From assembly GCA_026625185.1 (NCBI GenBank), contig CP113000.1:1623161-1687160 (forward strand): DNA of 64,000 nucleotides, read 5' to 3'. Source of the stretch: Thermodesulfobacteriota bacterium. Lineage in GTDB: Bacteria > Desulfobacterota > WTBG01 > JAGOGO01. This document shows, piece by piece, positions 19,906 to 42,558 of this stretch. How positions within the stretch are numbered: the first letter of the stretch is position 1; every line of letters starts with the position of its first letter. Below the pieces are notes generated by a model. It ran no database searches, was not told the DNA's origin, and saw only the letters and a list, made by a program, of their open reading frames with translations. The position numbers and the translations under genes are program-made.

Positions 19906-19918
19906 TTTCCTCCTCTTG

Positions 19919-23169: not shown

Positions 23170-25089
23170 ATGCGACAAGAGGAGACTTGTGTGCCGGTGA
23201 AGGCCATACGGGAACTCACTTTTGACGTTGTGCCTGACCCGATCGCAATCCTGGATAAGGAATATCGGATTGTCCAGGTGAACAAGGCCATGGCAAAACG
23301 TCTTGGGGCTACGCCGGAGAAATGCATCGGACAGTATTGTTATGCGTGTATACATGACGCAGCGGAACCGCCTGTGTTCTGTCCCCATAACCGACTGCTA
23401 CAGGATGGTCAGGAACATACCGCTGAGGTATATGAACCACATTTAGGGGGTCATTTTCTCGTTACGGTCTCGCCTCTTTTTAATGACCAAAGAGAGCTTA
23501 TCGGCAGTATCCATATAGCCCATGACATTACTGAACGTAAGCGAACAGAGGAAATGCTAAAAAAGGCCCATGATGCACTGGAGCTAAAAGTACAAGAACG
23601 GACTGCAGAGCTTATAAGAGCAAACAGGCAACTGGAGAAAACGGTAGGGGAACTTAAGCTGACTGAGGAAAAGTTGCGGAAAAAGGAGATGAGTCTGACA
23701 GCCGCGCAGCGAATCGCCCAGGTCGGCAACTGGGATTGGGACATTGAGACCAACGATCTCTACTGGTCTGACGAGGTTTATCGAATCTTCGGCCTCACGC
23801 TCCAAGAGTTTGGCGCTACCTACGATGCCTTCCTCGAATTGGTTCATCCGGATGATCGGGAGGTGGTTAAGGAGGCGGTCAACCGGTCCCTGAAGAATTC
23901 AAATGTGCCCTACAATATCGAGCACCGGGTGCTGCGGCCCGATGATATTGAGCATATTGTTCACGAACGGGGCGAAGTAATGTTTAATGAAAAGGGCAAG
24001 CCGATTCGCATGGTTGGTGTGGTGCATGATATCACCGACCTGAAGGAAACGGAAAACAAACTCCGGCATGCGTTGGATGAAGTTCAGAATTTAAAAGAGA
24101 AGATTGAGGCAGAAAACATTTACCTTCAGAAGGAGGTCAAGGGGGAGAAGGGCTTTGACGAGATTATCGGAAAGAGCAACGTGCTGAATTATGTCTTTTT
24201 CAGGGTTAAGCAAGTGGCGGGAACTGTTTCAACCGTTTTGCTCCTTGGCGAGACCGGCACGGGAAAGGAGCGCATTGCTCACGCCATTCATAACCGGAGC
24301 CCGCGGAAAGAAAAAATATTTGTCACGGTTAATTGCGCCGCGCTTCCCTCAAACATTATCGAAAGCGAACTTTTTGGGCGTGAAAAAGGGGCTTTTACCG
24401 GATCACATGCCAAGCAGATCGGTCGGTTTGAATTGGCGCATGGAGGTACGATCTTTCTCGATGAGGTTGGCGAACTTCCCCTGGAACTTCAATCCAAACT
24501 GCTCAAGGTGGTGCAGGATGGAGAGTTTGAGAGACTTGGCAACCCTCGCACCACCAAGGTGGATGTTCGGATTATTGCTTCCACCAACCGTAACTTGGAG
24601 GATATGGTTCAAAAAGGCCGGTTTCGGGAGGATCTTTACTATCGCCTCAATGTTTTTCCCATCACCATACCTCCTCTCCGGCAGCGCAAAGACGATATTC
24701 CTCTGCTGGTCGAACATTTCACCAAACATTTTTCCCAAAAACACGGAATAAAAATTAAAAAAATTCCTAAGGACGTTTTAACAAACCTCAAGGATTATTC
24801 GTGGCCCGGCAACGTGCGGGAGTTGCAAAACGTGATTGAGCGAGCAGTAATTACGAGTCGAGACGGTGTCCTGCGGGTTGAAAAACCGGCATTTTCTATT
24901 TCCGGGCCAGAGGATATTAAGCCCCTCGATGACTTGGAACGGGACTACATTCACAAAGTTTTAGAAAAAACTAAAGGGAGAATTGCGGGGACCCAGGGTG
25001 CCGCAATCCTTTTGGGAATGAATCCCAGTACTCTTCGTTCACGCCTTATCAAACTGGGGATCAAAAAGCGCGGATTTCGGTCGGCATAG
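23170..25089 (+). CDS. PAS-domain sigma-54-dependent transcriptional activator (Fis-family HTH)
   Basis: Two N-terminal PAS/PAC regions are followed by an AAA+ sigma-54 interaction domain (GETGTGKE, ESELFGREKGAFTG, GAF motif) and a C-terminal Fis-type HTH. An alternative GTG start at 23191 has a GAGGAG RBS. Confidence 0.85.
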   Translation: MRQEETCVPVKAIRELTFDVVPDPIAILDKEYRIVQVNKAMAKRLGATPEKCIGQYCYACIHDAAEPPVFCPHNRLLQDGQEHTAEVYEPHLGGHFLVTVSPLFNDQRELIGSIHIAHDITERKRTEEMLKKAHDALELKVQERTAELIRANRQLEKTVGELKLTEEKLRKKEMSLTAAQRIAQVGNWDWDIETNDLYWSDEVYRIFGLTLQEFGATYDAFLELVHPDDREVVKEAVNRSLKNSNVPYNIEHRVLRPDDIEHIVHERGEVMFNEKGKPIRMVGVVHDITDLKETENKLRHALDEVQNLKEKIEAENIYLQKEVKGEKGFDEIIGKSNVLNYVFFRVKQVAGTVSTVLLLGETGTGKERIAHAIHNRSPRKEKIFVTVNCAALPSNIIESELFGREKGAFTGSHAKQIGRFELAHGGTIFLDEVGELPLELQSKLLKVVQDGEFERLGNPRTTKVDVRIIASTNRNLEDMVQKGRFREDLYYRLNVFPITIPPLRQRKDDIPLLVEHFTKHFSQKHGIKIKKIPKDVLTNLKDYSWPGNVRELQNVIERAVITSRDGVLRVEKPAFSISGPEDIKPLDDLERDYIHKVLEKTKGRIAGTQGAAILLGMNPSTLRSRLIKLGIKKRGFRSA

Positions 25090-25307: not shown

Positions 25308-25359
25308 TACTACTTAAAAAACTAAACAGAAAGCATTGAAAAATGAATCAGGAGAACTT

Positions 25360-26514: not shown

Positions 26515-26577
26515 AATAAACCATTTAGATGCGGGATTCGTGATCCAGGATTCGGGATGCAAAGGGAAGGAGGGAAG

Positions 26578-26970: not shown

Positions 26971-27061
26971 GGCGCTGATGAAGAGAAGCAGAATTTATCC
27001 CGTATCTCGTATCCTGTATCTTATATCGAGCATCTCCTATTTTAACTTAATGTAATGTATT

Positions 27062-27823
27062 ATGAATTGTTTGGTACCACACATAACCGTCAAAGACCTC
27101 ACCATGGCTTACGGTGATTTTGTGCTCCAGCGGGACATGAACTTTGTCGTGAACCGGGGAGATATATTTATTATTATGGGGGGGAGTGGATGCGGCAAGA
27201 CCACCTTATTGCGTAACCTGGTGGGTTTAAAAGAACCCGCTCGCGGCCAGGTTTTTTATGGTGAGGTAAGTTTTTGGGAAAGCGATCAAGAAGAGCAGGG
27301 ACGCATCATGCGGCAGTTTGGCATCCTGTACCAAAGCGGCGCGCTCTGGACTTCGATGACCCTGTCTGAAAACATAGCTCTTCCCTTGCGGGAGTATACT
27401 GATTTAAATGAGGCGGCGATTCGGGAAATCGCTTCCCTCAAACTTTCTCTGGTAGGGCTTAAAGGGTTTGAAGATTTTTATCCTTCCGAGATCAGCGGCG
27501 GCATGCGTAAACGTGCCGGCCTAGCGCGCGCCATGGCACTGGACCCGGAAATTCTTTTTTTTGATGAGCCCTCGGCCGGGCTTGATCCTATCAGCTCCCG
27601 GCTTTTGGATGACCTGATTCTCGAAATCCGGGAGAGCCTCGGGGCAACTATTGTCGTGGTTAGCCACGAACTGCCAAGTATTTTTGCCATTGGAAATAAC
27701 TCTATCTATCTCGATGCAGAGGCTAAGACCATCATTGGCAGTGGGAATCCAAAAAAAATGCTTGAAGAGTCTCAGAATCCAATTGTTCGAGCGTTTCTGA
27801 CGCGGGGGGAACAAAAAGTCTAA
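27062..27823 (+). CDS. mlaF: MlaF-like ABC transporter ATP-binding protein
   Basis: Walker A is GGSGCGKTT, the ABC signature is LSGGMRKRAGLARA and Walker B is ILFFDEP. Confidence 0.8.
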   Translation: MNCLVPHITVKDLTMAYGDFVLQRDMNFVVNRGDIFIIMGGSGCGKTTLLRNLVGLKEPARGQVFYGEVSFWESDQEEQGRIMRQFGILYQSGALWTSMTLSENIALPLREYTDLNEAAIREIASLKLSLVGLKGFEDFYPSEISGGMRKRAGLARAMALDPEILFFDEPSAGLDPISSRLLDDLILEIRESLGATIVVVSHELPSIFAIGNNSIYLDAEAKTIIGSGNPKKMLEESQNPIVRAFLTRGEQKV

Positions 27824-27967
27824 GAGTCGCAAAGTGAGTCGCAAGGTCGAAAGGTCTCAGAGTCCCAAAGTTGTAGAATTAGGTTTTTCCCCTTAGACCG
27901 TTAGACCCTTAAGACCATGTGACTCTTTGACCTTGACTGAAGAAGAATAACATTAATGAGGTTAGGT

Positions 27968-28921
27968 ATGAGTAAAAAAGCGAGCAAAACCTTAATTGGG
28001 GCCTTTGTGGTTGGTGCCTTGGTGTTGGCGGTGATCGGGATTTTGCTTTTCGGGTCCGGTCAGTTTTTTTCCGAGAGTAAAACGTATGTGCTTTTTTTTA
28101 GGGGGTCGGTGAAAGGGCTCAATGTCGGCGCGCCGGTCAGTTTTCGTGGGGTCAAGGTTGGTCAGGTTACGGATATTAAAGCTCGCATTGATCCCCGTGA
28201 CTATGCTCTGAGTATAGCAGTCTATATAAAAACTAACCCCGGTTGGCTTACGCCGGTCGCTGAAGAAAAAACCCTGGATATGATACTCTCAAGCTTTGAG
28301 CGGGGAAAAATTCTTCAAGATTTGGTGACTAAAAAAGGTCTCCGCGCCCAGCTTCAACTGCAAAGCCTGGTGACCGGATTGCTGGAAATCGAATTTGACT
28401 TTTATCCTGATACTCCGATTACCTTGCTGGGTACTGAACCAAATGTCTCTGAGCTTCCTACCATTCCGTCAGATATGGAAAAGCTGCAGATGACACTCAG
28501 CAAATTTATTGCAAAGTTTGACAACCTTCCCATCGACGAATTTGTTAAGCGGCTCACGGATATCGCGGCAGGAGTTGATCGCCTGATAAATTCCCCTCAA
28601 ACCGAAGAGAACGTCCGTTCTTTCAATGCGACCCTAAAGGGATTACAGAGGTTGGTTGGCAATTTAAATAATCAGGTAAATCCGATGTCAACAAACATCC
28701 AGGAAAGTTTTAAGGCCGCCAAAGCGGCTCTTGAGCAAGCTCAAAAAACACTTGCCGCCGTTGAAGGTGTGACTGGAGATGCATCTTCATTGCGTTACCA
28801 AATGGGCGAAGCGCTCGAACAGATTTCTGATGCAGCACGTTCCCTTCGAGTGACGGCTGAGTATTTAGATCAACACCCTGAAGCGTTAATTCGCGGGAAA
28901 AAAGAATCAGGAGGAAAGTGA
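27968..28921 (+). CDS. mlaD: MlaD/MCE-domain protein (single MCE domain, N-terminal anchor)
   Basis: The protein has a TM anchor, one MCE domain and a helical C-terminus (the TAEYLDQHPEALIRGK tail is shared with PqiB at 18280). A GAGGT RBS precedes the ATG. Confidence 0.75.
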   Translation: MSKKASKTLIGAFVVGALVLAVIGILLFGSGQFFSESKTYVLFFRGSVKGLNVGAPVSFRGVKVGQVTDIKARIDPRDYALSIAVYIKTNPGWLTPVAEEKTLDMILSSFERGKILQDLVTKKGLRAQLQLQSLVTGLLEIEFDFYPDTPITLLGTEPNVSELPTIPSDMEKLQMTLSKFIAKFDNLPIDEFVKRLTDIAAGVDRLINSPQTEENVRSFNATLKGLQRLVGNLNNQVNPMSTNIQESFKAAKAALEQAQKTLAAVEGVTGDASSLRYQMGEALEQISDAARSLRVTAEYLDQHPEALIRGKKESGGK

Positions 28922-28922
28922 T

Positions 28923-29549
28923 ATGGAGAAAAGATTTTGCTTTCCGGTAGGATGCATTATGTTAGGTGTTTGGGTTTTGCTCCTCAGTGGATGTGGCCAC
29001 ACGCAACCGTCCCGATTCTATCTTTTGCAATCCATACCGGGCATGGAGAAGGACAAGCACGCTGCTACCAACGGACAGAGCCTTACGATCTGTGTGGGTC
29101 CGGTCATGATCCCCAAATACCTTGATCGTCCTCAAATCGTAACCACGACAAAGACAAGCGAGCTTAAGCTGGCTGAGTTTGACCGGTGGGCAGAGCCATT
29201 CAAGGACAACTTTTCTCGTGTTCTGACGGAAAATCTCTCGGAGGCCTTGGAGACGGATCGGGTCGCTGTCTTTCCCCGGGAAAGCGCTGCATCTTCTGAT
29301 TATCAGATAATAGTAACGGTTATCCGTTTTGATGGTGAGTCCGGGGGCAATGCGGTTTTAAGTGCCCGCTGGAGTATTTATGGAGAGGGTGGGAAGAAAG
29401 AACTTTTTTCGAAAAAATCGGATCTCAGCGAGCCAGCAGGGGTGCAAGGGTATGAAGCATTGGTGTCTGCCCAGAGCCGGATGATTGCGGGATTGAGCAA
29501 GGAAATCGCGGGAGCGATAAAAGCACTTGGGCAAGGCAAGACTCCTTAA
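28923..29549 (+). CDS. PqiC/YmbA-like auxiliary lipoprotein (paralog of the 17687 gene)
   Basis: The lipobox is LLSGC followed by the SRFYLL motif. The ATG comes directly after the mlaD stop. Confidence 0.7.
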   Translation: MEKRFCFPVGCIMLGVWVLLLSGCGHTQPSRFYLLQSIPGMEKDKHAATNGQSLTICVGPVMIPKYLDRPQIVTTTKTSELKLAEFDRWAEPFKDNFSRVLTENLSEALETDRVAVFPRESAASSDYQIIVTVIRFDGESGGNAVLSARWSIYGEGGKKELFSKKSDLSEPAGVQGYEALVSAQSRMIAGLSKEIAGAIKALGQGKTP

Positions 29550-29941: not shown

Positions 29942-30304
29942 GGGATTTAATACGTCTGTGAACCTTTTCCCCCCTATCCCTGTTATTTAAAGTTTTTGCG
30001 TAATATCGCACCTGTCCTTAAAATTCTACGAAATATCAAAGGTATTTTCCTGATACAACTTCCCTTCTGCCTATTATAATCATGATAACTATTTAATATT
30101 GAGGTGTTATTTTTGCACGATTAATTATCAAGGTTCACGGCACAAAATTTGTATTGTCTTATTAAACTGCGATTAATATGAGGGTTCTCTTTCAAATGTC
30201 ATTCCTACATAAGCAGAAATCCAGAACCAAACGAAGTTAAGAGACTCCCACCTTCGAGGGTGTGAGAGAATGGAAATTGATTAGAGGTACCAATGAATTA
30301 ATGA

Positions 30305-32053
30305 ATGAAAGGAAATGGTGATATTATGCCCGATAAAATTTATCGTATTAATATGACCGATTTGAAGGTTACGAATGAAGAAGTACCGGAACAATGGAAA
30401 GGGCTGGGGGGCAGGGGTTTGACTTCCACAATTGTGGCTCAGGAAGTAAAGCCCACCTGTCATCCTTTGGGAAAGTACAATAAGCTGATAATTGCACCGG
30501 GGTTGCTAACCGGAACAGCGGCGGTCAACTCTGGGAGGCTTTCGGCTGGTGCTAAAAGTCCGCTGACCGGGACAATCAAAGAAAGTAATGCTGGTGGAAC
30601 TGCTGCCCAGTTTTTTGCCCGATTGGGCATTAAGGCACTTATTATTGAAGGTCTGCCCCAGAAAGACACCTTTTACAGCCTTCATGTGGATAAGAGCGGA
30701 GTTACGATTCAGGAAGACACGGAATTCGCAGGCAAAGGGAATTATGAAGTAATGCAAATGGTTCAAAAAAAGTACGGAGAAAAGATTGGTATACTATCCA
30801 TCGGACCGGCAGGGGAAATGCGGATGGCCGCAGCCAATATTTCGGTGAAGGATCCTGATGGAACTATTCGCAGCCTGGGGCGGGGAGGACTGGGGGCGGT
30901 CATGGGTTCAAAAAAGATAAAGTTCATTACCATTGATGATACGGATGGCCCCGGTGTCCAGATTGCTGATCCGGAAAAATTCAAAACCGCTTCCCGCACG
31001 TTTGCCAAGGGGGTTATTGCCCATCCGGTGAGCGGCGAATCACTCAAGCTTTACGGCACCGATGTGCTGGTAAACATCTTAAACGAAGCCGGCGGCCTGC
31101 CAACGGAAAATTTCCGCTATGGTCAATTCCCTGGTCATGAAAAAATAAGCGGTGAAACGGTATATGAGACGATCCTGAGCCGGAAAGGCAACCCAAGCCA
31201 TATCTGCCATCGGGGATGTGTCATCAGATGTTCTCAGGTTTACAATGATAAAAATGGCAATTATGTTACTTCGGGCTTTGAATATGAAACGATCTGGGGC
31301 TTTGGCGCCAACTGCAATATAGATGACCTGGATATCATCGCGGAAGCTGATCATGTTATGGACGATGTCGGGGTTGACTCAATAGAAACCGGGGTGGCGA
31401 TGGGCGTTGCCATGGAAGCCGGGATCATTCCCTTTGGCGACGGGGCCGGAGTTCTGAGGTTGTTGAAAGAAATCGGCACTGGTACTCCCCTGGGCAGAAT
31501 TCTCGGCTCCGGGGCTGAAGGAGTCGGGAAAACATATGGTATCACCAGAGTACCGGTGGTGAAGGGCCAGGGGCTTTCCGCCTATGACCCGCGATCAATA
31601 AAAGGTATGGGCATTACCTATGCGACGTCAACCATGGGCAGTGATCATACCGCCGGTTACTGTGTTCCGGTAAACATCCTGAACGTTGGGGGTTTTGTTG
31701 ATCCTCTGAAAAAGGAAGGGCAGGTAGAGCTCTCAAGAAGGCTGCAGATAGGTACTGCATTATTGGATAGCACTGGTCTTTGTCTCTTCGTTGCCTTTTC
31801 TGTCTTAGACAATCTGGACTTATTTCAAGCTATGATGGACATGATAAATGCCAAATATGGTCTCAGCATGACGATCGATAATGGAAGAGCACTGGGTAGA
31901 AAAATCCTTCGCACCGAGCATGAATTCAATTTGGCTGCAGGGTTCACCAACAAGGATGACCGGCTCCCGGAATTTTTCGAGGAACCGGTGCCCCCGCACA
32001 ATGCGGTGTGGGATTTCACTGACGAAGAGATTGATTCATTCTGGAATTTCTGA
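30305..32053 (+). CDS. aor: Aldehyde:ferredoxin oxidoreductase, second paralog (tungsten AOR family)
   Basis: The ORF has the AOR N-terminal signature (YRINMTDLKVT.EEVPE...GGRGLTS) and full AOR length. An alternative start at M8 (30326) is possible. Confidence 0.85.
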   Translation: MKGNGDIMPDKIYRINMTDLKVTNEEVPEQWKGLGGRGLTSTIVAQEVKPTCHPLGKYNKLIIAPGLLTGTAAVNSGRLSAGAKSPLTGTIKESNAGGTAAQFFARLGIKALIIEGLPQKDTFYSLHVDKSGVTIQEDTEFAGKGNYEVMQMVQKKYGEKIGILSIGPAGEMRMAAANISVKDPDGTIRSLGRGGLGAVMGSKKIKFITIDDTDGPGVQIADPEKFKTASRTFAKGVIAHPVSGESLKLYGTDVLVNILNEAGGLPTENFRYGQFPGHEKISGETVYETILSRKGNPSHICHRGCVIRCSQVYNDKNGNYVTSGFEYETIWGFGANCNIDDLDIIAEADHVMDDVGVDSIETGVAMGVAMEAGIIPFGDGAGVLRLLKEIGTGTPLGRILGSGAEGVGKTYGITRVPVVKGQGLSAYDPRSIKGMGITYATSTMGSDHTAGYCVPVNILNVGGFVDPLKKEGQVELSRRLQIGTALLDSTGLCLFVAFSVLDNLDLFQAMMDMINAKYGLSMTIDNGRALGRKILRTEHEFNLAAGFTNKDDRLPEFFEEPVPPHNAVWDFTDEEIDSFWNF

Positions 32054-32093: not shown

Positions 32094-32312
32094 ATGAAGG
32101 TTAAATTATTTGCAGCATTCCGTGACGGAAGATTTAAAGAAAAAGAGTGGGGCTATTTTGACGGTATTACCGTGGGATCTATTCTGGAAGCGCTCAATAT
32201 TAATAAGAAGGAAGCGGGGGTATTATTAGTTAACTCCCGCCATGCAGAAACAAATTATAGACTGGGAAAAGGGGATACCCTTTCTCTTTTTCCGGTCATC
32301 GGGGGTGGATAG
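32094..32312 (+). CDS. moaD: MoaD/ThiS-family ubiquitin-like sulfur carrier (C-terminal GG)
   Basis: The 72-aa ORF runs MKVKLFAAFRD...GDTLSLFPVIGGG, showing the beta-grasp pattern and a terminal Gly-Gly. The ATG at 32094 is in frame within the longer ORF in the track. Confidence 0.65.
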   Translation: MKVKLFAAFRDGRFKEKEWGYFDGITVGSILEALNINKKEAGVLLVNSRHAETNYRLGKGDTLSLFPVIGGG

Positions 32313-32389
32313 AAAGAAATTAGTTATCTGAAATAATAAAGTCTTAAGAATGAAGGTTCTTTAATAACTTTCAGCTCAACGAGGAAGCG

Positions 32390-34711
32390 ATGAAAAAAGG
32401 ATTGTCAAAGATACTAATGCTTAGTGTTGTGTGTTTTGGGGTCTTCTACTTGTGCGCAAACAGCTTTGCAATTACGATTAATGAGGTAAAACCAGGAGAA
32501 GATGTCTTCGCATATATCACCAGAGTCAAAAGGGGCTTTAATCAGACCCTTTATCAGCAGGTGATCGGTGCTTCCAATGCTTTCAAAGAAGGCGATGAAA
32601 CTATTGGGGTGGCGGCCGATGATGAATCGACCCGGCAACATGCCCGGACGCTTTTGGCAAACACGAAGATCAAAGACCTCTATGAGCACCCTCTCCTTGC
32701 CGACGACCTGCAGAAGCTGATCTGGCAAACCACCGATCAGGCCCAGTACAAGAAGGTTAAAGACTGGACCATGGGACAGCTGAAAGAATTTCTTTTAACC
32801 AAACCTGAGGCAGAGATCAAGGGCATCATGCATGGCTTGACCAGTGATGCGATTGGGTGTGTCCCCAAGCTGATGAGCAATGAAGAGTTAATCGCCATTG
32901 ATCAAAAGATATTCAACCCCTTGCCGGGAACCAAGATGGGGGCAAAAGGGTACTTGAGTGCCCGCATACAGCCCAATTCGCCCACTGACAACCCCGATGA
33001 TATTGTCTGGGAGGTGTTTGACGCGTTTTCCTATGCCACTGGCGATATCGTTATCGGAACCAACCCGGTGGACAGTCAGGTAGAGAGTGTAGCCACCGTG
33101 GAGAAAGCGCTCAAGGATGTGGTCGATACTTTCAAGCTTCAGGAGGTCGTTCCCTGGTGTGTGCTTTCCCATATCGATGTCCAGGCAGAGGTTAGTAAGA
33201 AGTATCCGGGAACGGTTGAGACCATGTTCCAGAGCCTCGCCGGAACAGATGATTGCAACAAGACCTTTGATGTCACGGTTGAGAAGATAATGAATTATGC
33301 AAAATCCAAGAAAGGAGAGAGATACGGGCTCTACTTTGAGACCGGTCAGGGCTCTGAATTTACCAACGGCGCGGCCAAAGGGGCTGACATGATGGTGCTG
33401 GAATCCCGGAAGTACGGCTTTAGCCGGGCGGCACAGATGGAACTGGCTAAAGTCCAGCCTCAAGGGGCGTGGCTCCACGTCAATGATGTGGCCGGATTCA
33501 TCGGGCCCGAGGTCTTCAGGACCCGCGAGCAACTTGTGAGATGCTGCCTGGAAGATATCGCCATGGGTAAACTCCACGGATTAACCATTGGTCTTGATAT
33601 TTGTTCAACCCTGCACATGACCGTCAGCCTCGATGATCTCAATTGGTGCCAGGACCAGATCATGCCGGCCAACCCTGCTTACTTGATGAGCCTGCCCACC
33701 AAGAATGACCCCATGTTGAGCTATCTGACCACGTCGTTTCAGGATCATGTCCGCCTGAGGGAAAAATTCGGCCTTAAAGTGAACGATCCCATGTGGGCTT
33801 TCTATAAGCTGATCGGGATTGTGGACAAGAACAACAAGTACACGAAGAATTTTGGCGATCCAATCTGGGTGTACTACCAGTACCGGCTGGCCAAGGGGGA
33901 CAAGCGTTCCAAAGAAGCAATTTATGCTGAAGGAAAGAAGAAGATCAAGGAAGTTGAGGCGAGAGGCGTTGATCTGGCAATCGGTCACGGCAAGGATTTA
34001 TGGGATCTCAATCCGCAACTGGCGGCCAAGGTAAAAACCTACTACGACGATGCCAAGATATCCCTCTGGGCCGAGCTTACTCCTGCCTTTATCAAGACAA
34101 TCCCCAATGCCCTGCAGGTCAGCACCCTGTCCAAGGATCGGGAGGACTATATCCTCCATCCGGCCAGCGGCGAGAAACTGAGCCCGGAATCCGTCTCTGC
34201 CCTTGAAAAGCTCAGGGACTCATGGGCAGGAATGGAGCCGAATGCGCAGATCGTGATTTCCGATGGCCTGAACGCCAAGGCCATTATGGATGATGGGCAT
34301 CTTGCACCTTACCTGGAAGAAATCCGGATGCTGCTGACCAGTGCCGAAGCTGTTGGGAGCGGAAAGACCGCTATTGTGAGCGAAAAGAACATCGTCTTCA
34401 CCAGCGGCAGGGTACGGGCCGGGTATGAGATCGGCTGCATGCTCTTTGGGAAATCAGATCCGAAAAAGCTGAAGGGGATTATTCACATCATCGGGGAGCG
34501 GCCGGGGACCATGCACCATTCCTATTCGGTGTATATCACCGTTGCCAAAGGAGAGGCATGGGCTCAAAAGAAGATTGATCACGATATTACGAAACTCGTA
34601 TGCAACATAGCAGATACAGCCTTACCTCCGAAAGAAGCGGCCAAGGAGACCCTCACCATAATAAGGGAAATGGTTGCGAAGCAGGCTCCTTCCAGCCGAA
34701 GCTCCCAGTGA
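32390..34711 (+). CDS. eutBC: Single-chain ethanolamine ammonia-lyase (EutB heavy + EutC light chain fusion) with N-terminal hydrophobic extension
   Basis: Residues about 30-480 align to EutB (LTSDAIGCVPKLMSN, GTFSARLQPNSPTDNPDD, GDIVIGTNPV, LYFETGQGSE, VAGFIGPE, MGKLHGLTIGLD, NDPMLSYLTTSFQD). Residues about 560-740 align to EutC (QIVISDGLNA...HIIGERPG). A GAGGAAG RBS precedes the start. The first 26 aa (MKKGLSK + ILMLSVVCFGVFYLCANSFA) are signal-peptide-like. Confidence 0.8.
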   Translation: MKKGLSKILMLSVVCFGVFYLCANSFAITINEVKPGEDVFAYITRVKRGFNQTLYQQVIGASNAFKEGDETIGVAADDESTRQHARTLLANTKIKDLYEHPLLADDLQKLIWQTTDQAQYKKVKDWTMGQLKEFLLTKPEAEIKGIMHGLTSDAIGCVPKLMSNEELIAIDQKIFNPLPGTKMGAKGYLSARIQPNSPTDNPDDIVWEVFDAFSYATGDIVIGTNPVDSQVESVATVEKALKDVVDTFKLQEVVPWCVLSHIDVQAEVSKKYPGTVETMFQSLAGTDDCNKTFDVTVEKIMNYAKSKKGERYGLYFETGQGSEFTNGAAKGADMMVLESRKYGFSRAAQMELAKVQPQGAWLHVNDVAGFIGPEVFRTREQLVRCCLEDIAMGKLHGLTIGLDICSTLHMTVSLDDLNWCQDQIMPANPAYLMSLPTKNDPMLSYLTTSFQDHVRLREKFGLKVNDPMWAFYKLIGIVDKNNKYTKNFGDPIWVYYQYRLAKGDKRSKEAIYAEGKKKIKEVEARGVDLAIGHGKDLWDLNPQLAAKVKTYYDDAKISLWAELTPAFIKTIPNALQVSTLSKDREDYILHPASGEKLSPESVSALEKLRDSWAGMEPNAQIVISDGLNAKAIMDDGHLAPYLEEIRMLLTSAEAVGSGKTAIVSEKNIVFTSGRVRAGYEIGCMLFGKSDPKKLKGIIHIIGERPGTMHHSYSVYITVAKGEAWAQKKIDHDITKLVCNIADTALPPKEAAKETLTIIREMVAKQAPSSRSSQ

Positions 34712-34827: not shown

Positions 34828-36723
34828 GTGAATGTTTTAATTTTTCTGATAGTGTTTCCGCTGGTTATCTCAGTGTTGGCGTTAGCACTCCCGCGTGGTC
34901 TTCTTATCAAAAGGATTATTGGGGTGATCGCCAATGTAGTTCTGTGTGCGGTACCAATCTATCTTCTGGTCACGTATCTTGATAAGGGTCCTGCCTATTT
35001 CCACCTTGAGAGCCATCTGATCAATAATTCCATGCTTGTGGTGGAAATTCTCATCGCAGCCTATATAATTTATATTTCCATCCGGGCAAAAAGATACCTT
35101 CCCGTGCTGCTTGTTTTTCTACAATCAGTGATTATGCTTAGTTTCGAGTTTACCTCCGGTAGGGGGATGCAGATTGAGCACAGCCTGTTCGTGGATAAGT
35201 TCTCCATCATCATGGCTTTGATCGTGGGTTGTATCGGAAGCGCCATCTGTCTTTACGCAATCGGATATATCCCGGAATATCACGAACACTACAAGGAGGT
35301 GAAAGCAAGGCCCAGGTATTTCTTTTTCCTCATGTACCTCTTCCTGTCCGCCATGTTTGGCATCGTTTTCTCCAATAACCTCATGTGGATCTATTTCTTC
35401 TGGGAAATTACCACGCTCTGTTCATTTTTGCTGATCGGCTATAAAAACGACCAGGCATCCCAGGAGAGCGCATTCAGAGCACTCATCATGAATCTACTGG
35501 GAGGAGTTGTTTTCGCGGTCGGCCTTGTCTACCTGTACCATTCCTCCCAAGTCATGGAATTAAATAAATTGATTCAGCTCGATAAGGGCTACGTATTAAT
35601 TCCGGCCGTGTGCATTGCCTTTGCCGGCCTGGTAAAATCAGCCCAATTCCCGTTTTCCTCCTGGCTGACGGGCGCCATGGTGGCACCGACACCAGTGTCA
35701 GCGTTGCTGCATTCGAGCACGATGGTAAAAGCGGGGGTCTATATCATCCTGAGAGTGGCCCCGGTGTTAGAGAACACTGTAGCAGCAAAAATGCTCATGC
35801 TCATCGGCGGGGTCAGTTTTCTGATTACCGCTTTCATTGCCATTTCTCAGAGCAATGCCAAAAAGGTGCTCGCCTACTCGACCATTTCCAACCTTGGGTT
35901 GATCGTCGCCTGTGCAGGAATTAATACCTATTCGGCAGTATGGGCAGCGATTCTGCTGATTATTTTTCATGCGGTAGCAAAGTCGCTCCTCTTTCTCTGT
36001 GTGGGGATTATCGAGTACAAGCTTGGCAGCCGTGATATAGAGGATATGGACTATCTGATCATGCGAATGCCCAAGCTCACCGCAATCATGATGACCGGCA
36101 TGGCCGGGATGTTTCTTGCTCCTTTTGGCATGATCATAGGCAAGCTCGCCACGCTGAAAGCATTTGTCGATTCCAATCCGGGGATGGCAATAATTTTAGC
36201 CTATGGAAGCGGGGCCACGGTCTTTTTCTGGATTAAATGGATGGGCAAAATTATTTCCATTAAACATGGCGTCTTTAAGGTCATGGAAGACCGGGTCAGC
36301 CGCTGGGAATGGATTACCCTGGGCATATTGGCCATTTCGACGGTGGCGGCATGCATTGGGTTTCCTCTCATCGCATTCCGCCTGGTGGACCCCTTTATCC
36401 TGGAGGTCTTTGGAAAAACCGTTATCGTTGATCCATTTAGTGTCTATATGATTCTCCTCATGATGGTTGGCCTGTTAATCCTTCTTCCCCTTGGTCTTTT
36501 TTTCTTTGGATTCGTCAATAAAGGATATAAGAGGGTCGGAACCTATCTTGGCGGCGCCAATATTGACGATGTCACTTTTGAAGGGGCCATGGAATCTTCC
36601 CAGACAATTGAGCTCAAGAATTACTATCTGGAAAAATTCTTTGGAGAAAACGTTTTATTCAATGCCGGGGTTTTTATTTCGTTAATATTGTTGGTCATCA
36701 TGTTTGGAGTTGCAATCATATGA
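34828..36723 (+). CDS. echA: Ech hydrogenase subunit A (NuoL/MrpA-like antiporter membrane subunit)
   Basis: The 631-aa polytopic protein of the complex I antiporter-like family starts with GTG behind a GGTGAGAGGA RBS. It is the first gene of a six-gene ech block. Confidence 0.7.
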   Translation: MNVLIFLIVFPLVISVLALALPRGLLIKRIIGVIANVVLCAVPIYLLVTYLDKGPAYFHLESHLINNSMLVVEILIAAYIIYISIRAKRYLPVLLVFLQSVIMLSFEFTSGRGMQIEHSLFVDKFSIIMALIVGCIGSAICLYAIGYIPEYHEHYKEVKARPRYFFFLMYLFLSAMFGIVFSNNLMWIYFFWEITTLCSFLLIGYKNDQASQESAFRALIMNLLGGVVFAVGLVYLYHSSQVMELNKLIQLDKGYVLIPAVCIAFAGLVKSAQFPFSSWLTGAMVAPTPVSALLHSSTMVKAGVYIILRVAPVLENTVAAKMLMLIGGVSFLITAFIAISQSNAKKVLAYSTISNLGLIVACAGINTYSAVWAAILLIIFHAVAKSLLFLCVGIIEYKLGSRDIEDMDYLIMRMPKLTAIMMTGMAGMFLAPFGMIIGKLATLKAFVDSNPGMAIILAYGSGATVFFWIKWMGKIISIKHGVFKVMEDRVSRWEWITLGILAISTVAACIGFPLIAFRLVDPFILEVFGKTVIVDPFSVYMILLMMVGLLILLPLGLFFFGFVNKGYKRVGTYLGGANIDDVTFEGAMESSQTIELKNYYLEKFFGENVLFNAGVFISLILLVIMFGVAII

Positions 36724-37601
36724 ACAGTATTTCTGAGATCATCCAATCCTGGAGTATCATTGAAAGGATGCTGGCCTTTTTCCTGCTTGCGCCCATTGCG
36801 GGTGGCGTACTGGCCGGTATTGACCGGAAATTGAGCGCACGGTTGCAGGGCAGATATGGCCCCCCGGTGAGGCAGCCTTTTTTTGATGTTCTAAAACTTT
36901 TCCAAAAAGAGCGGATCCTCGTTAACAAATTTCAGAACTTTCCGATAGTGCTCTTTTTTCTGTTTACGGTTTTTTCCGGCGCTCTTTTCTTTTCCGGTGC
37001 GAGTATCCTTTTGGCAATCTTCAGTTTAGCCCTGGCCGGAACTTTTTTTATCCTGGGTGGATTTTCGGTCAGTTCCCCGTATAGCCACCTTGGCGCTGAG
37101 CGCGAATTGATTCAGATGATGTCATACGAACCCATGGTCATTCTTGTGGCGGTCGGCATGTACCAGGTGACGGGAAGCTTTACGGTTGCGGACATTGTCC
37201 AACACCAGGCGTCGCTGATTCTTTACCTTCCCGGGGTGTTCGCGGGCTTTGTTTATATCCTCACCATTAAGTTCCGAAAATCTCCTTTTGACCTTTCCAT
37301 GTCTCATCATGCGCACCAGGAACTGGTGAGGGGGATCACTACCGAATTTTCCGGTCCTGCCCTGGGCCTCATAGAGATTACTCATTGGTATGAAAATGTG
37401 CTTCTCTTGGGCATGGTATACCTCTTTTTTGCCTTTAATCCCTGGCTGGCCATCGTTGCGTCACTGGGAACGTATTTGTTTGAAATTATTATTGATATGA
37501 ATTATGCCCGATTTAAGTGGCAGCTTACGTTCTGGAGTTCATGGTTGTTTACGGCTGTGGCCGGGGTTTCAAATATTATTGTGCTTTGTTTTTTGAAATG
37601 A
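36720..37601 (+). CDS. echB: Ech hydrogenase subunit B (NuoH/HycD-like membrane subunit)
   Basis: The ORF has the NuoH-family motif (GGVLAGIDRKLSARLQGRYGPP) and its start overlaps the echA stop. Confidence 0.8.
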   Translation: MNSISEIIQSWSIIERMLAFFLLAPIAGGVLAGIDRKLSARLQGRYGPPVRQPFFDVLKLFQKERILVNKFQNFPIVLFFLFTVFSGALFFSGASILLAIFSLALAGTFFILGGFSVSSPYSHLGAERELIQMMSYEPMVILVAVGMYQVTGSFTVADIVQHQASLILYLPGVFAGFVYILTIKFRKSPFDLSMSHHAHQELVRGITTEFSGPALGLIEITHWYENVLLLGMVYLFFAFNPWLAIVASLGTYLFEIIIDMNYARFKWQLTFWSSWLFTAVAGVSNIIVLCFLK

Positions 37602-37619
37602 CTTGGGAGAACAAAAAAC

Positions 37620-38105
37620 ATGGGTTGGTTTAAAAAATCGCCGTGGCTTCTTCATTATAACGCGACCAGCTGTAACGGGTGCGATATTGAGATTATTGCC
37701 TGCCTGACCCCTTTGTACGATCTGGAGCGGTTTGGTATTATCAACACCGGAAACCCAAAACACGCTGACATCCTGGCGGTCACCGGGTCGGTCAATGAGA
37801 AGAGCAAGCAGATTCTGAAAAATCTTTATGATCAAATGCCGAATCCCAAGGTAGTCGTGGCGGTAGGCCTTTGCGCCATTTCCGGATGCGTTTTTCAGGA
37901 CTGCTACAATGTGCTGGGAGGAGCCGACAAGGTGTTGCCGGTAGATGTGTATGTTCCGGGATGTTCTGCGCGGCCGGAATCGATTATCGACGGAGTACTT
38001 CAGGCGTGTGAGATTCTTGAAGAGAAATACGCCCAGCAGAAAAAAGCAAAGCAATCATCACCAAAATCACAAACAAATCAACGGCAAGGTTTTAACCATG
38101 AGTGA
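37620..38105 (+). CDS. echC: Ech hydrogenase small subunit (NuoB-like, proximal [4Fe-4S])
   Basis: The Cys ligand pattern CNGC...GxCAxxGC...PGC fits the NuoB/HycG family. Confidence 0.85.
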   Translation: MGWFKKSPWLLHYNATSCNGCDIEIIACLTPLYDLERFGIINTGNPKHADILAVTGSVNEKSKQILKNLYDQMPNPKVVVAVGLCAISGCVFQDCYNVLGGADKVLPVDVYVPGCSARPESIIDGVLQACEILEEKYAQQKKAKQSSPKSQTNQRQGFNHE

Positions 38106-38544
38106 ACCGCAGGAAATCATTCTTATCGAAAAAAATAATTTACTGGGAATTGTGTCTGACCTCTTTGCAGAGGGCTACCGACTTGTGCAGATCGGCTGCA
38201 CCACACTCCAGAGCGCCTATGAACTTAACTATTCTTTTGATAAAGAGTACCATTTTAAAAATCTGCGGTTTACCGTGGCACCGGAAGAAGAGATCCAAAG
38301 CATCAGCGTTATCTATCCAAATGCCTTTCTGTATGAAAATGAAATTCATGACCTTTTTGGCCTTACCATCAAAAACATAACCATTGACTACCAGGGGAAG
38401 CTTTACCGAACTGCCCTTAAGGTTCCTTTTAGCATTGAGAATTGTCCGGTGCCCGAGCCCCCAAAACCAAAGAAAGAAACTCCTCCAGAACCGCCGGAAA
38501 GCCAAAAACAAAATTCGGCAGACACTAAACCGCAAGAGGATTAA
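38098..38544 (+). CDS. echD: Ech hydrogenase subunit D (NuoC-like)
   Basis: The ORF has the NuoC 30-kDa family core and a Pro/Lys-rich C-terminus. Its ATG overlaps the echC stop (ATGAGTGA). Confidence 0.7.
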   Translation: MSEPQEIILIEKNNLLGIVSDLFAEGYRLVQIGCTTLQSAYELNYSFDKEYHFKNLRFTVAPEEEIQSISVIYPNAFLYENEIHDLFGLTIKNITIDYQGKLYRTALKVPFSIENCPVPEPPKPKKETPPEPPESQKQNSADTKPQED

Positions 38545-38558
38545 AGGAGTAAACGTCT

Positions 38559-39638
38559 ATGGCGCATAAGAATATCATCCCTTTTGGTCCCCAACATCCC
38601 GTACTTCCGGAACCGATCCATTTTGATCTCGTAACTGAAGATGAAAAGATTGTTGATGCTATCCCTTCGATAAGTTACGTCCACCGCGGGCTGGAACGAC
38701 TTGTAGAAAAAAGAGATTTTATTGATTTCGTGCATATTGCCGACCGGATTTGCGGCCTGTGCAGCTTTATGCACTGTATGGGATATTGCCAGGCAGTGGA
38801 AGAGGTTATGGGTATCCAGGTGCCGGAACGTGCTCTGTACCTCAGATCCATATGGGCGGAGCTGGCGCGGATACATAGTCATATCTTCTGGCTCGGTGTT
38901 TCTGCCGACGCTTTTGGTTATGAAAGCCTTTTTATGCAATCCTTGCGTCTCCGGGAATTGGTGCTTGATATCATTGAAGAAACCACCGGCGGAAGGGTCA
39001 TCTTTGGCTCCTGCAAGGTGGGTGGGGTGAGGAGAGACATCGATAGCGAAACTTTAAAGGGGCTTGTTGCTAGGTTGACAAATATGAAAGCCGATTTGGA
39101 TGAACTCACTTCCGTCTTTATTAATGATTATTCCATTCAGCACCGATTGGTGGGGGTAGGATTTTTTTCCAAAGAAGATGCCTATACTCTTGGGTGTGTT
39201 GGCCCCATGGCCCGGGCGAGCGGTTTCGCTCTTGACATGCGAACTCTTGGGTATGCTGCCTATAAGTTCCTGGAGATAGAACCGGTCGTGGAATACGGGG
39301 GAGACTGTTATGCCCGATGCCTCGTGCGAATTCGGGAAATTTTCCAATCCATGGATTTAATCCGTCAGGCAGCCGGAAAAATTTCCGAAGGGCCTATTGA
39401 TGTCAAGGTGAAGGGCACGCCGAATGGCGAGTATTTTTCCCGGGTCGAACAGCCTCGGGGTGAAGTGATTCATTACGTCAAAGGGAATGGTTCAAAATTT
39501 CTCCAGCGGTTCCGGGTGAGAGTCCCAACATTCACCAATATCCCAGGGATGATCAAAGTATTGAAAGGTTCTCAGGTGGCTGATGTCCCGAATATTATTT
39601 TGACCTTGGATCCGTGTATCAGCTGCACAGAAAGGTAA
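38559..39638 (+). CDS. echE: Ech hydrogenase large subunit (group 4 [NiFe] catalytic subunit, NuoD-like)
   Basis: The NiFe-binding N-terminal RICGLCS and C-terminal DPCISCTER motifs are present. At 359 aa it matches known EchE length. Confidence 0.85.
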   Translation: MAHKNIIPFGPQHPVLPEPIHFDLVTEDEKIVDAIPSISYVHRGLERLVEKRDFIDFVHIADRICGLCSFMHCMGYCQAVEEVMGIQVPERALYLRSIWAELARIHSHIFWLGVSADAFGYESLFMQSLRLRELVLDIIEETTGGRVIFGSCKVGGVRRDIDSETLKGLVARLTNMKADLDELTSVFINDYSIQHRLVGVGFFSKEDAYTLGCVGPMARASGFALDMRTLGYAAYKFLEIEPVVEYGGDCYARCLVRIREIFQSMDLIRQAAGKISEGPIDVKVKGTPNGEYFSRVEQPRGEVIHYVKGNGSKFLQRFRVRVPTFTNIPGMIKVLKGSQVADVPNIILTLDPCISCTER

Positions 39639-39650
39639 GGCAATAAGAAC

Positions 39651-40043
39651 ATGAGATCGTTTACTATGACAAAAACGGTGGTCAAGAACCTGGTCAAGGG
39701 ACCCGCAACCCTCATGTACCCGAAAAAAAAGAGGTTTTTTACTAAGATTACCAGGGGAAGCGTAGAAATTGATATCCAGAAATGCATTTTCTGCGGGATA
39801 TGCAGCAAACGGTGTCCAACCTACGCCATTGTTGTCACCAAAGTCACCAAAGAATGCAAAGAATGGGAGATCGACCGCCTCAAATGCTGCGCCTGCAATC
39901 TTTGTGTTGAAGTCTGTCCGAAAAAGTGTCTCTCGATGACCAACCAGTATACCCCGCCAGCAAGAGATAGAACGGCAGGGATCCATAAACAAATTTTCAC
40001 CGGCCCTGAAATCCTTACGGGAAAGGAAGAGGAGCATTCCTAA
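39651..40043 (+). CDS. echF: Ech hydrogenase subunit F (NuoI-like 2x[4Fe-4S])
   Basis: Two ferredoxin cluster motifs are present (CIFCGICSKRCP and CCACNLCVEVCP). Confidence 0.8.
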   Translation: MRSFTMTKTVVKNLVKGPATLMYPKKKRFFTKITRGSVEIDIQKCIFCGICSKRCPTYAIVVTKVTKECKEWEIDRLKCCACNLCVEVCPKKCLSMTNQYTPPARDRTAGIHKQIFTGPEILTGKEEEHS

Positions 40044-41261: not shown

Positions 41262-41337
41262 AAAAATAAAGAGACCTTTTAAGAATCGCTCGTAATGAGT
41301 GATTAGGATAATCACCTATAGTTTTGAGGTTAACAAA

Positions 41338-42552: not shown

Positions 42553-42558
42553 GGCACT

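What the first reader, a model, noticed from the sequence alone, without database searches (positions are those of the whole stretch)
32390..34711. Single-polypeptide EutB-EutC fusion carrying a signal-peptide/signal-anchor-like N-terminus
Ethanolamine ammonia-lyase is normally two separate cytoplasmic chains, EutB of about 450 aa and EutC of about 290 aa. Here both are fused in one 773-aa ORF with a roughly 75-aa linker. Alignment shows about 26 extra N-terminal residues (MKKGLSK + a 20-residue hydrophobic stretch ending SFA) that look like a Sec signal peptide or membrane anchor, not like the amphipathic BMC encapsulation peptides. Export of an AdoCbl radical enzyme would be odd. A more plausible function is a membrane tether near the Ech complex.
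Basis: seen in the sequence. Interest (0 to 1): 0.7.

Follow-up and report, generated by a model that had tools for sequence, protein, structure and literature searches.

The report
Export-signal-bearing fused ethanolamine ammonia-lyase
This gene encodes a one-chain version of the vitamin-B12-dependent enzyme ethanolamine ammonia-lyase that carries a secretion signal, as do hundreds of relatives in at least five bacterial phyla, so this normally intracellular radical enzyme probably works outside the cytoplasm.

Summary
ORF 32390-34711 (+) encodes a 773-aa EutB-EutC fusion, and the start codon cannot be moved past its hydrophobic N-terminus. The EAL fold is confirmed and six substrate-binding residues are conserved.

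The N-terminus has Sec signal-peptide anatomy: three Lys, a 16-residue hydrophobic core, then S-F-A. Relatives settle how to read it. Of the 120 closest fused homologs (75-100% identity), 85 carry a canonical twin-arginine RRxFL motif and about 20 carry Sec-like signals. In 120 Bacteroidota-type homologs, most carry a Tat-like motif and about half a lipobox-like cysteine by pattern. Signal-less members of the clade are eukaryotic.

The best reading is therefore an exported periplasmic EAL. Its product acetaldehyde would diffuse back to the cytoplasmic aldehyde:ferredoxin oxidoreductase and Ech-type hydrogenase encoded around it.

Charge distribution predicts N-in/C-out, orthologs carry Tat signals, and Ech adjacency does not track signal type.

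The fusion was noted once, in the Pelobacter carbinolicus genome paper. I found no report of the export signals. Open problems are the AdoCbl supply in the periplasm and reactivation without EutA. No signal-prediction software or experiment was available.

The parts
32381..32387 (+). Shine-Dalgarno-like GAGGAAG, ending 3 nt upstream of the start codon
   Evidence: Read from the sequence.
32390..32470 (+). Predicted Sec-type (SPase I) signal peptide, residues 1-27: n-region MKKGLSK (+3), h-region ILMLSVVCFGVFYLCA, c-region NSFA. Predicted cleavage is after Ala27.
   Evidence: Rule-based features. pLDDT is below 50 and the segment is a lone helix in the AF2 model. This region shows 29% pairwise identity against 83% for the mature part. 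Homologs carry Tat, Sec or lipoprotein signals at the same place. Cleavage was not tested.
32471..32551 (+). Conserved mature N-terminal segment, residues 28-54 (ITINEVKPGEDVFAYITRVKRGFNQTLY). Residues 28 to about 38 extend beyond the start of canonical EutB; by the alignments, residues from about 39 correspond to the canonical EutB N-terminus.
   Evidence: Alignment A1 shows F40 and F50 invariant and G36, E37, D38 nearly invariant. pLDDT is about 91 for residues 31-50.
32552..33847 (+). EutB (large subunit) domain, residues 55-486, a TIM barrel. It carries substrate-binding residues R192, Q194, N225, E317, D403 and M433.
   Evidence: Pfam PF06751, E 2e-147. NCBIfam EutB scores 649 bits against a cutoff of 554. 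Aligns to 3abo_A and 2qez. Foldseek TM 0.85 to 3abo_A. Residue conservation.
33848..33994 (+).
   Evidence: 76% mean pairwise identity over 487-558. Helices at 491-501, 508-524 and 542-560 with high pLDDT.
33995..34687 (+). EutC (small subunit) domain, residues 536-766, with the VISDGLN and IGERPG motifs.
   Evidence: Pfam PF05985, E 2e-29. Aligns to E. coli EutC chains 3any_B and 3abo_B. Foldseek TM 0.71 to 3abo_B. It falls below the NCBIfam EutC equivalog cutoff, 73 bits against 230.
30305..32053 (+). Aldehyde:ferredoxin oxidoreductase (AOR) with no signal peptide; the presumed cytoplasmic consumer of acetaldehyde.
   Evidence: Pfam AFOR_N and AFOR_C. AOR lies directly upstream of eutBC in L002, L011, L017, L018, L023 and L026 as well.
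32094..32312 (+). 72-aa ThiS/MoaD-like protein ending in Gly-Gly.
   Evidence: Pfam ThiS. Start placed at MKVKLF. Called as a 72-aa gene on the public contig L022.
34828..40043 (+). Six-gene Ech-type membrane-bound [NiFe] hydrogenase cluster: NuoL-like, NuoH-like, NuoB-like, NuoC-like, NuoD/NiFe large subunit, and 2x[4Fe-4S] subunits.
   Evidence: Pfam hits. Gene calls on L022. The same AOR-eutBC-Ech order occurs in L023 at 80% EutBC identity.
23170..25089 (+). PAS-domain sigma-54 activator; a possible regulator of the AOR-eutBC-ech genes.
   Evidence: Pfam. A similar regulator sits next to AOR-eutBC in L026. The link is inferred only.
30138..30153 (+). Weak sigma-54 -24/-12-like element, CGGCACAAAATTTGTA, ending 151 nt upstream of the AOR start codon.
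   Evidence: It has 2 mismatches to TGGCAC-N5-TTGCW. Similar elements lie upstream of AOR in L026 (1 mismatch) and L023 (2 mismatches). At this stringency chance matches are common.

Best explanation
The gene encodes a single-chain, catalytically competent ethanolamine ammonia-lyase that is exported across the cytoplasmic membrane.

Proposed mechanism in this organism:
1. The Sec pathway recognises the N-terminal signal (MKKGLSK, a 16-residue hydrophobic core, then NSFA).
2. Signal peptidase I probably cleaves after Ala27.
3. The 746-aa mature protein folds in the periplasm and binds adenosylcobalamin there.
4. It splits ethanolamine into NH4+ and acetaldehyde.
5. Acetaldehyde crosses the membrane by diffusion.
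6. The cytoplasmic tungsten-type aldehyde:ferredoxin oxidoreductase encoded just upstream oxidises it to acetate.
7. The Ech-type hydrogenase encoded just downstream re-oxidises the reduced ferredoxin, making H2 and ion-motive force.

Fusing both subunits would let one signal peptide carry the whole enzyme.

Shown here: the fusion, the fold, the active-site residues, the signal-peptide anatomy, conservation of export signals across the clade, and the gene neighbourhood.

Inferred only: actual export, cleavage, periplasmic cofactor loading, the substrate, and the metabolic coupling.
For: Enzyme identity.
- EutB and EutC domains are present.
- The sequence aligns to solved E. coli and Listeria EAL chains.
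- The AF2 model has pTM 0.80 and matches 3abo_A (TM 0.85) and 3abo_B (TM 0.71).
- R160, Q162, N193, E287 and D362 (E. coli numbering) are invariant in 240 exported-type homologs. The M392 position is Met or Ile.

The signal is real.
- No alternative start codon is available.
- The N-terminal segment is the single most hydrophobic stretch of the protein.
- The n-region is +3 and the flank after the core is -2.
- S-F-A or C-G-A precedes the conserved mature N-terminus.
- The signal region is 29% identical between homologs, against 83% for the mature enzyme. That is the pattern expected of a signal peptide.

The clade carries export signals.
- 85 of the 120 closest homologs have R-R-x-F-L (F in 78 of 85, L in 80 of 85) followed by a hydrophobic stretch.
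- About 20 have Sec-like signals. Most of the remainder are visibly truncated gene calls.
- Genome loci from Thermodesulfovibrionales, Syntrophorhabdus, Geobacteraceae, Desulfobacteraceae, Bradyrhizobium, Sinorhizobium, Microvirga and Planctomycetaceae carry RR motifs. The two Aquiflexum loci have SRKTFL.
- Among the 120 Bacteroidota-type homologs, 100 match an RK or RR motif. By a loose pattern, 61 have a Cys in lipobox-like context at the end of the hydrophobic core.
- Three signal-less members of the clade that could be traced are eukaryotic.
- More distant unfused or fused EutB sequences start directly in the enzyme core.

Context.
- The window has outer-membrane genes, so there is a periplasm. 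It has no detectable eutA, eutH or BMC shell genes.
- An acetaldehyde-consuming enzyme lies next to eutBC in many loci. It is AOR in the window, L002, L011, L017, L018, L023 and L026, and Zn-ADH in L010, L024 and L025.
- Related loci add a secreted solute-binding protein and a Gcw_chp outer-membrane barrel.
Against: - No signal-peptide predictor (SignalP, TatP, DeepTMHMM) could be run. The assignment rests on rules and on comparison with homologs.
- No member of the clade has been localised experimentally, as far as the searchable literature shows.
- To my knowledge, AdoCbl is made in the cytoplasm. A Sec substrate crosses unfolded, so the cofactor would have to be acquired in the periplasm, and no route is known.
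- EAL is prone to suicide inactivation, and its reactivase EutA needs ATP, which the periplasm lacks.
- The downstream enzymes (AOR, Ech) are cytoplasmic or membrane-bound, so the pathway would be split across the membrane.
- Three close homologs (P0027, P0030, P0031) have no hydrophobic N-terminus.
- Many loci have no AOR or Ech (L020, L021, L027). The metabolic coupling therefore holds only for a subset.
Confidence: 0.7

Rival explanations
1. The N-terminus is an uncleaved signal anchor. The enzyme is translocated but stays tethered to the outer face of the cytoplasmic membrane. In Bacteroidota-type relatives it would be lipid-anchored through the conserved Cys.
For: The hydrophobic core of 16 residues is long for a signal peptide. 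About half of the 120 Bacteroidota-type homologs carry a lipobox-like Cys by pattern, which implies membrane attachment in that lineage. The topology argument is the same as for the best explanation.
Against: A small-x-small motif (SFA, CGA) lies 3-4 residues after the core, just before the conserved mature sequence. That is typical of SPase I cleavage. Tat-type relatives also have A-x-A-type endings.
Confidence: 0.15
2. One reading: the hydrophobic N-terminus tethers a cytoplasm-facing enzyme to the membrane next to the Ech complex.
For: eutBC lies between the AOR and ech genes in the window and in L023. A cytoplasmic site would fit the known cytoplasmic synthesis of AdoCbl (my own knowledge).
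Against: The positive n-region and acidic C-flank predict N-in/C-out. 85 of 120 orthologs carry Tat export motifs, and many Bacteroidota-type homologs carry a lipobox-like Cys. Ech adjacency occurs with both signal types and is absent in other Sec-type loci. EAL has no redox step to share with Ech.
Confidence: 0.05
3. The protein is exported but is not primarily an ethanolamine enzyme. It would deaminate another vicinal amino alcohol present in the periplasm, or serve nitrogen scavenging rather than energy metabolism.
For: The EutC part scores below the NCBIfam equivalog cutoff. The Met392 position is Ile in 95 of the 120 close homologs. Many loci have no aldehyde-handling neighbour. E. coli EAL also accepts 2-amino-1-propanol (PDB 5ysr title).
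Against: Five substrate-binding residues are invariant and the sixth is conservative. AOR or ADH neighbours fit acetaldehyde as the product. Pelobacter carbinolicus, which has two such fused genes, grows on ethanolamine (PMC3543383).
Confidence: 0.1
4. The feature is an annotation or assembly artefact: a wrong start codon, or two genes joined by a frameshift.
For: Nothing beyond the general possibility. Some nanopore-derived loci (L011, L017, L018) do show frameshifts that split the gene.
Against: There is no alternative start. The identical protein is on an independent public contig. More than 240 full-length fused homologs carry N-terminal signals.
Confidence: 0.01

Closest known systems
Canonical two-subunit ethanolamine ammonia-lyase EutB/EutC of E. 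coli, Salmonella and Listeria (PDB 3ABO, 2QEZ)
   Same: It shares the two domains and the fold: TM 0.85 for the EutB part and 0.71 for the EutC part. It also shares the substrate-binding residues R160, Q162, N193, E287, D362 and M392.
   Different: It is one polypeptide instead of two. It has only about 31% identity to E. coli EutB. It has an N-terminal export signal where canonical EutB has none. No eutA, eutH or BMC shell genes are nearby.
Fused EutBC1/EutBC2 of Pelobacter (Syntrophotalea) carbinolicus (Pcar_0491, Pcar_0467), Aklujkar et al. 2012, PMC3543383
   Same: [quoted passage not shown] It reports an AOR in the same gene cluster, neighbouring periplasmic binding proteins, and no eutA in the genome. 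This matches what is seen here.
   Different: The paper assumes uptake of ethanolamine and does not mention a signal peptide on EutBC. I could not retrieve the Pcar sequences to check their N-termini.
Tat-exported corrinoid enzymes: reductive dehalogenases (RdhA/PceA). This comparison rests on my own knowledge and was not tested here.
   Same: They are a precedent for a corrinoid-containing enzyme carrying a twin-arginine signal and working on the outer face of the cytoplasmic membrane.
   Different: They use a different fold and different chemistry (Co(I) and Fe-S reductive dehalogenation, not AdoCbl radical elimination). I know of no Sec-type variants.
NosZ nitrous-oxide reductase clade I (Tat) versus clade II (Sec). 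This comparison rests on my own knowledge and was not tested here.
   Same: It is a precedent for one periplasmic cofactor enzyme whose lineages switch between Tat and Sec signals, with the cofactor inserted after export.
   Different: It is a copper enzyme with dedicated periplasmic maturation factors. No comparable maturation genes were identified next to eutBC.

Membership tests
Ethanolamine ammonia-lyase (EutB + EutC) | EutB large-subunit domain | tested here: met
   Pfam PF06751, E 2e-147. NCBIfam NF011649 scores 649 bits against a cutoff of 554.
Ethanolamine ammonia-lyase (EutB + EutC) | EutC small-subunit domain | tested here: inconclusive
   Pfam PF05985 scores 103 bits against a cutoff of 25.8, which is met. 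The NCBIfam equivalog NF003971 scores 73 bits against a cutoff of 230, which is not met. The fold matches 3abo_B with TM 0.71.
Ethanolamine ammonia-lyase (EutB + EutC) | Substrate-binding residues Arg160, Gln162, Asn193, Glu287, Asp362 and Met392 (E. coli numbering; the residue list is from my own knowledge of the E. coli structure papers) | tested here: met
   All six are present in the window protein: R192, Q194, N225, E317, D403, M433. Five are invariant in 240 homologs. The sixth is Met or Ile.
Ethanolamine ammonia-lyase (EutB + EutC) | Two separate subunits encoded by adjacent genes | tested here: not met
   It is a single 773-aa ORF. The fusion is shared by more than 240 homologs.
Ethanolamine ammonia-lyase (EutB + EutC) | AdoCbl-dependent deamination of ethanolamine | not testable with these tools
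   This needs an enzyme assay.
Sec-type (SPase I) signal peptide | Positively charged n-region, hydrophobic h-region, and small residues at -3 and -1 | tested here: met
   MKKGLSK (+3), ILMLSVVCFGVFYLCA, then N-S-F-A followed by I. These are rule-based features only.
Sec-type (SPase I) signal peptide | Score from a trained predictor, and experimental cleavage | not testable with these tools
   SignalP, DeepTMHMM and Phobius were not available.
Twin-arginine (Tat) signal peptide | S/T-R-R-x-F-L-K motif before the h-region | tested here: not met
   The window protein has K-K-G-L-S-K and no RR. The motif is present in 85 of the 120 closest homologs.
Lipoprotein (SPase II) signal | Lipobox [LVI][ASTVI][GAS]C | tested here: not met
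   The window protein has F-Y-L-C, which does not fit. By a loose pattern, a lipobox-like Cys is found in 61 of the 120 Bacteroidota-type homologs and by eye in most of the rest.
BMC encapsulation peptide / eut microcompartment enzyme | Amphipathic N-terminal helix, together with BMC shell genes in the locus | tested here: not met
   The N-terminal segment is uniformly hydrophobic. The larger ORFs (mostly 150 aa or more) scanned against Pfam gave no eut accessory family.

The most novel reading that the evidence does not exclude
A whole multi-phylum clade of fused EutBC enzymes works outside the cytoplasm. To my knowledge this would be the first extracytoplasmic adenosylcobalamin-dependent radical enzyme. 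Its members reach the periplasm through Tat, Sec or lipoprotein routes. The Sec-type members, including this one, must bind AdoCbl after export. That would imply a usable periplasmic AdoCbl pool and operation without the ATP-dependent reactivase. Fusion of the two subunits would be the adaptation that lets a single signal peptide export the enzyme.
Probability: 0.5. Interest if true: 0.85.

Novelty: new variant of a known kind. Interest (0 to 1): 0.7.

Why it matters
To my knowledge, AdoCbl-dependent eliminases are treated as cytoplasmic or microcompartment enzymes. They depend on cytoplasmic cofactor synthesis and on ATP-driven reactivation.

A conserved, widespread exported form would raise two questions. 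The first is how a B12 radical enzyme is loaded and kept active in an ATP-free compartment. The second is whether exogenous or recycled AdoCbl is used directly in the periplasm.

It would also offer a different solution to acetaldehyde toxicity: making the aldehyde outside the cytoplasm rather than inside a protein shell.

Finally, it would change how ethanolamine use is inferred from genomes of soil, sediment and marine bacteria. In Desulfobacterota, Nitrospirota, rhizobia, Bacteroidota and Planctomycetota, these genes are currently annotated simply as 'EutB'.

In the window itself, the genes suggest a compact route: ethanolamine to acetate, H2 and NH4+, with energy conserved through AOR and Ech.

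Tried and rejected
- Alternative start codon or frameshift: rejected.
- BMC targeting peptide: rejected. The segment is uniformly hydrophobic and the window has no shell genes.
- Lipoprotein signal in the window protein: the lipobox does not fit.
- Cobalamin riboswitch or any other Rfam family in the window: none found.
- Homologs in the window of the SBP_bac_6 and Gcw_chp neighbours seen in related loci: none.
- Single Tat-to-Sec switch: an NJ tree of the mature parts places Sec-type sequences at several positions among Tat-type ones. Branches are very short and the tree has no support values. I therefore take it only as a hint of repeated switching or recombination.
- Literature searches for Tat, signal-peptide or periplasmic EAL gave nothing relevant apart from the Pelobacter genome paper. 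The Tsoy et al. 2009 comparative-genomics paper was not in the library.
- A sigma-54 promoter for the operon: only weak 1-2-mismatch matches were found, and these are not distinguishable from chance in the window.
Full report
**Observation.** The ORF at 32390..34711 (+) exists as described and encodes 773 aa. Pfam places EutB at residues 55-486 (E 2e-147) and EutC at 536-766 (E 2e-29). NCBIfam's EutB model scores 649 bits against a cutoff of 554. The EutC equivalog model scores only 73 against 230, so the small-subunit part is divergent. The start codon is secure. ATG 32390 sits 3 nt downstream of GAGGAAG. The frame opens 12 codons upstream with no other start. The only in-frame starts before residue 58 lie inside the hydrophobic segment. 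The identical protein is on an independent public metagenome contig with the same neighbours.

**Enzyme identity.** The protein aligns to the solved heavy chains of Listeria (2QEZ, E 2e-68) and E. coli (3ABO, E 3e-62), and to E. coli light chains. An AlphaFold2 model built on 51 homologs has pTM 0.80. Foldseek finds 3abo_A (TM 0.85) and 3abo_B (TM 0.71), followed by diol and glycerol dehydratases. The substrate-binding residues of E. coli EutB are Arg160, Gln162, Asn193, Glu287, Asp362 and Met392; that list is from my own knowledge of the structure papers. They correspond to R192, Q194, N225, E317, D403 and M433. Five of the six are invariant in 240 homologs, and the sixth is Met or Ile. It is predicted helical with high confidence, so it is a structured connector rather than a loose tether.

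**The N-terminus.** Residues 1-27 read MKKGLSK / ILMLSVVCFGVFYLCA / NSFA. This is the most hydrophobic stretch of the whole protein. It has a +3 n-region, and the following 15 residues are net -2. A small-x-small motif comes just before the sequence that is conserved in all homologs. In the structure model it is a lone, low-confidence helix. Relative to E. coli EutB the protein has about 38 extra residues. Of these, 27 make up this signal-like part. The rest belong to a conserved mature segment.

**Relatives decide the reading.** The 120 closest database proteins are all fused EutBC of 723-801 aa at 75-100% identity.
- Their N-termini are 29% identical on average, against 83% for the mature EutB part.
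- 85 of them carry R-R-x-F-L (Phe in 78 of 85, Leu in 80 of 85; Ser is the commonest residue before RR and Lys the commonest after FL). A moderately hydrophobic stretch and an A-x-A-type ending follow. This is the canonical twin-arginine signal.
- About 20, including the window protein and its nearest relatives, have no RR and a more hydrophobic core. Mean maximal hydropathy for the 26 sequences the script classed as Sec-like is 2.54, against 2.03 for the Tat class. That is the Sec pattern.
- Most of the others are visibly truncated gene calls. Three (P0027, P0030, P0031) have no signal.

**Taxonomic spread.**
- Genome contigs show the same gene in Thermodesulfovibrionales, Syntrophorhabdus, Geobacteraceae, Desulfobacteraceae, Bradyrhizobium, Sinorhizobium, Microvirga, Aquiflexum and Planctomycetaceae. 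Nearly all carry RR motifs; the two Aquiflexum loci read SRKTFL.
- A second search seeded with a Bacteroidota-type representative returned 120 proteins whose named members are Bacteroidota (Algoriphagus, Echinicola, Aquimarina, Leeuwenhoekiella and others). By pattern, 100 of them match an RK or RR motif. 61 have a cysteine in lipobox-like context at the end of the hydrophobic core (LFNSC, LNGC), and a similar Cys (FQAC, FSRC) is visible by eye in most of the rest. This looks like a Tat-type lipoprotein signal.
- In the 50%-identity representative library, three signal-less members of the clade that could be traced are eukaryotic: Paratrimastix, Anaeramoeba and Andalucia.
- More distant fused or unfused EutB sequences begin directly in the enzyme core.

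Across at least five bacterial phyla, then, this clade keeps an export signal while freely changing its type. That is hard to explain unless the protein is exported.

A tether holding a cytoplasm-facing enzyme next to Ech would need an N-out orientation. That contradicts the positive n-region and acidic flank, and it is incompatible with the Tat and lipoprotein-like signals in orthologs. Ech adjacency also does not follow signal type. It is seen with Sec-type genes (window, L023) and with Tat-type genes (L002, L011, L017). It is missing at another Sec-type gene (L020).

**Neighbourhood and likely physiology.** In the window, the genes run on one strand in this order:
- AOR (30305-32053);
- a 72-aa MoaD/ThiS-like gene (32094-32312);
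- eutBC;
- six Ech-type hydrogenase genes (34828-40043);
- a K+-channel-like gene;
- an RND efflux pump.

A MAG locus at 80% EutBC identity has the same AOR-eutBC-Ech order, followed by a ferredoxin gene and an RND pump. AOR also lies directly upstream of eutBC in L002, L011, L017, L018 and L026. In alphaproteobacterial loci a zinc alcohol dehydrogenase takes that place. These neighbours fit acetaldehyde as the product. Neither AOR nor ADH has a signal peptide, so the aldehyde would have to diffuse inward.

Related loci also encode a secreted SBP_bac_6 binding protein and a Gcw_chp outer-membrane barrel. The window has no homologs of these. The window encodes outer-membrane proteins, so the organism has a periplasm. 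It shows no eutA, eutH or shell genes. Other loci (L020, L021, L027) show no aldehyde-handling context. In those organisms the enzyme may serve mainly to release ammonia.

**What is known.** The fusion was noted in the Pelobacter carbinolicus genome paper. That paper also recorded an AOR in the cluster, neighbouring periplasmic binding proteins and the absence of eutA. It assumed uptake of the substrate and did not mention a signal on EutBC. Eight full-text searches found nothing on Tat-, Sec- or periplasm-located EAL. From my own knowledge, there are two precedents. Tat export of a corrinoid enzyme is known for reductive dehalogenases. Tat/Sec switching of a periplasmic cofactor enzyme is known for NosZ clades I and II. 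I know of no exported AdoCbl radical enzyme.

**Open problems and limits.**
- No trained signal predictor and no experiment were available.
- The supply of AdoCbl in the periplasm is unexplained, especially for Sec-type members.
- Reactivation without ATP is unexplained.
- A distance tree suggests more than one Tat/Sec switch, but it has no support values.

**Verdict.** It is a new variant of a known enzyme family and, as far as I could find, undescribed. Interest is 0.7.

Noticed in passing
window 41299-47206 (also 47781-53724); L002, L004, L005, L006, L013, L017, L018, L020, L023: An RND efflux pump (MFP, AcrB-type transporter, and usually an OEP) lies next to or near the fused eutBC in about ten loci, in different gene orders. 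This suggests more than inherited synteny. No explanation was found.
   Followed up: partly
window 23170-25089 and 30138-30153; L026 2676-4292 and 6021-6036; L023 457-472: A PAS-domain sigma-54 activator sits near AOR-eutBC in the window and in L026. Weak -24/-12-like elements lie upstream of AOR in three loci. The matches have 1-2 mismatches and are not statistically distinguishable from chance.
   Followed up: partly
P0123, P0126, P0127, P0122 (representative library): The fused clade includes eukaryotic proteins without bacterial signals: Paratrimastix pyriformis, Anaeramoeba flamelloides and Andalucia godoyi. One 1110-aa member, P0122, has a roughly 400-aa N-terminal extension that looks like C2 domains by eye.
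   Followed up: partly
P0121, P0284-P0402; L012, L015: Bacteroidota-type versions combine a Tat-like SR[KR]xFL motif with a Cys at the end of the hydrophobic core, usually followed by D/N-F. The enzyme there would be a Tat-type lipoprotein.
   Followed up: partly
L001 8158-10144; L002 6887-7993 and 12256-13233; L013 8961-9803: In related Desulfobacterota and Nitrospirota loci, eutBC is accompanied by a secreted SBP_bac_6 (PotD-like) binding protein with no adjacent ABC permease. A Gcw_chp outer-membrane barrel is also present. Both are absent from the window.
   Followed up: partly
L010 8753-9775; L024 6777-7799; L025 6875-7897: In alphaproteobacterial-type loci, a 340-aa zinc alcohol dehydrogenase lies directly upstream of the Tat-type eutBC. 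This is a different acetaldehyde sink from the AOR seen in the anaerobes.
   Followed up: no
window residue 433 of the ORF (33686-33688): The position equivalent to E. coli EutB Met392 is Met in the window protein and in all 120 Bacteroidota-type homologs. It is Ile in 95 of the 120 closest homologs.
   Followed up: no
P0027, P0030, P0031: Three close homologs (84-85% identity) start MSDQRLKRETMSIEEATISIEVKLREDVF and have no hydrophobic segment. They may be a secondarily cytoplasmic variant or a mis-assembled 5' end.
   Followed up: no
window 5-724, 901-3429, 4218-6011; L021: The window also encodes pyruvate kinase, glycogen phosphorylase and a second AOR. Glycogen phosphorylase and pyruvate kinase also flank eutBC in a Syntrophobacteraceae MAG (L021). 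This hints at the taxonomic neighbourhood of the window.
   Followed up: no
window 17687-21211 (-) and 25336-29549 (+): Two Mla/Pqi-type lipid-transport gene sets lie upstream of the AOR-eutBC-ech genes: PqiA, MlaD and an auxiliary lipoprotein in one; MlaE, an ABC ATPase, MlaD and an auxiliary lipoprotein in the other. A 23S-rRNA-IVP-family gene (26557-26970) sits inside the second set. Any link between phospholipid traffic and ethanolamine supply is speculation.
   Followed up: no
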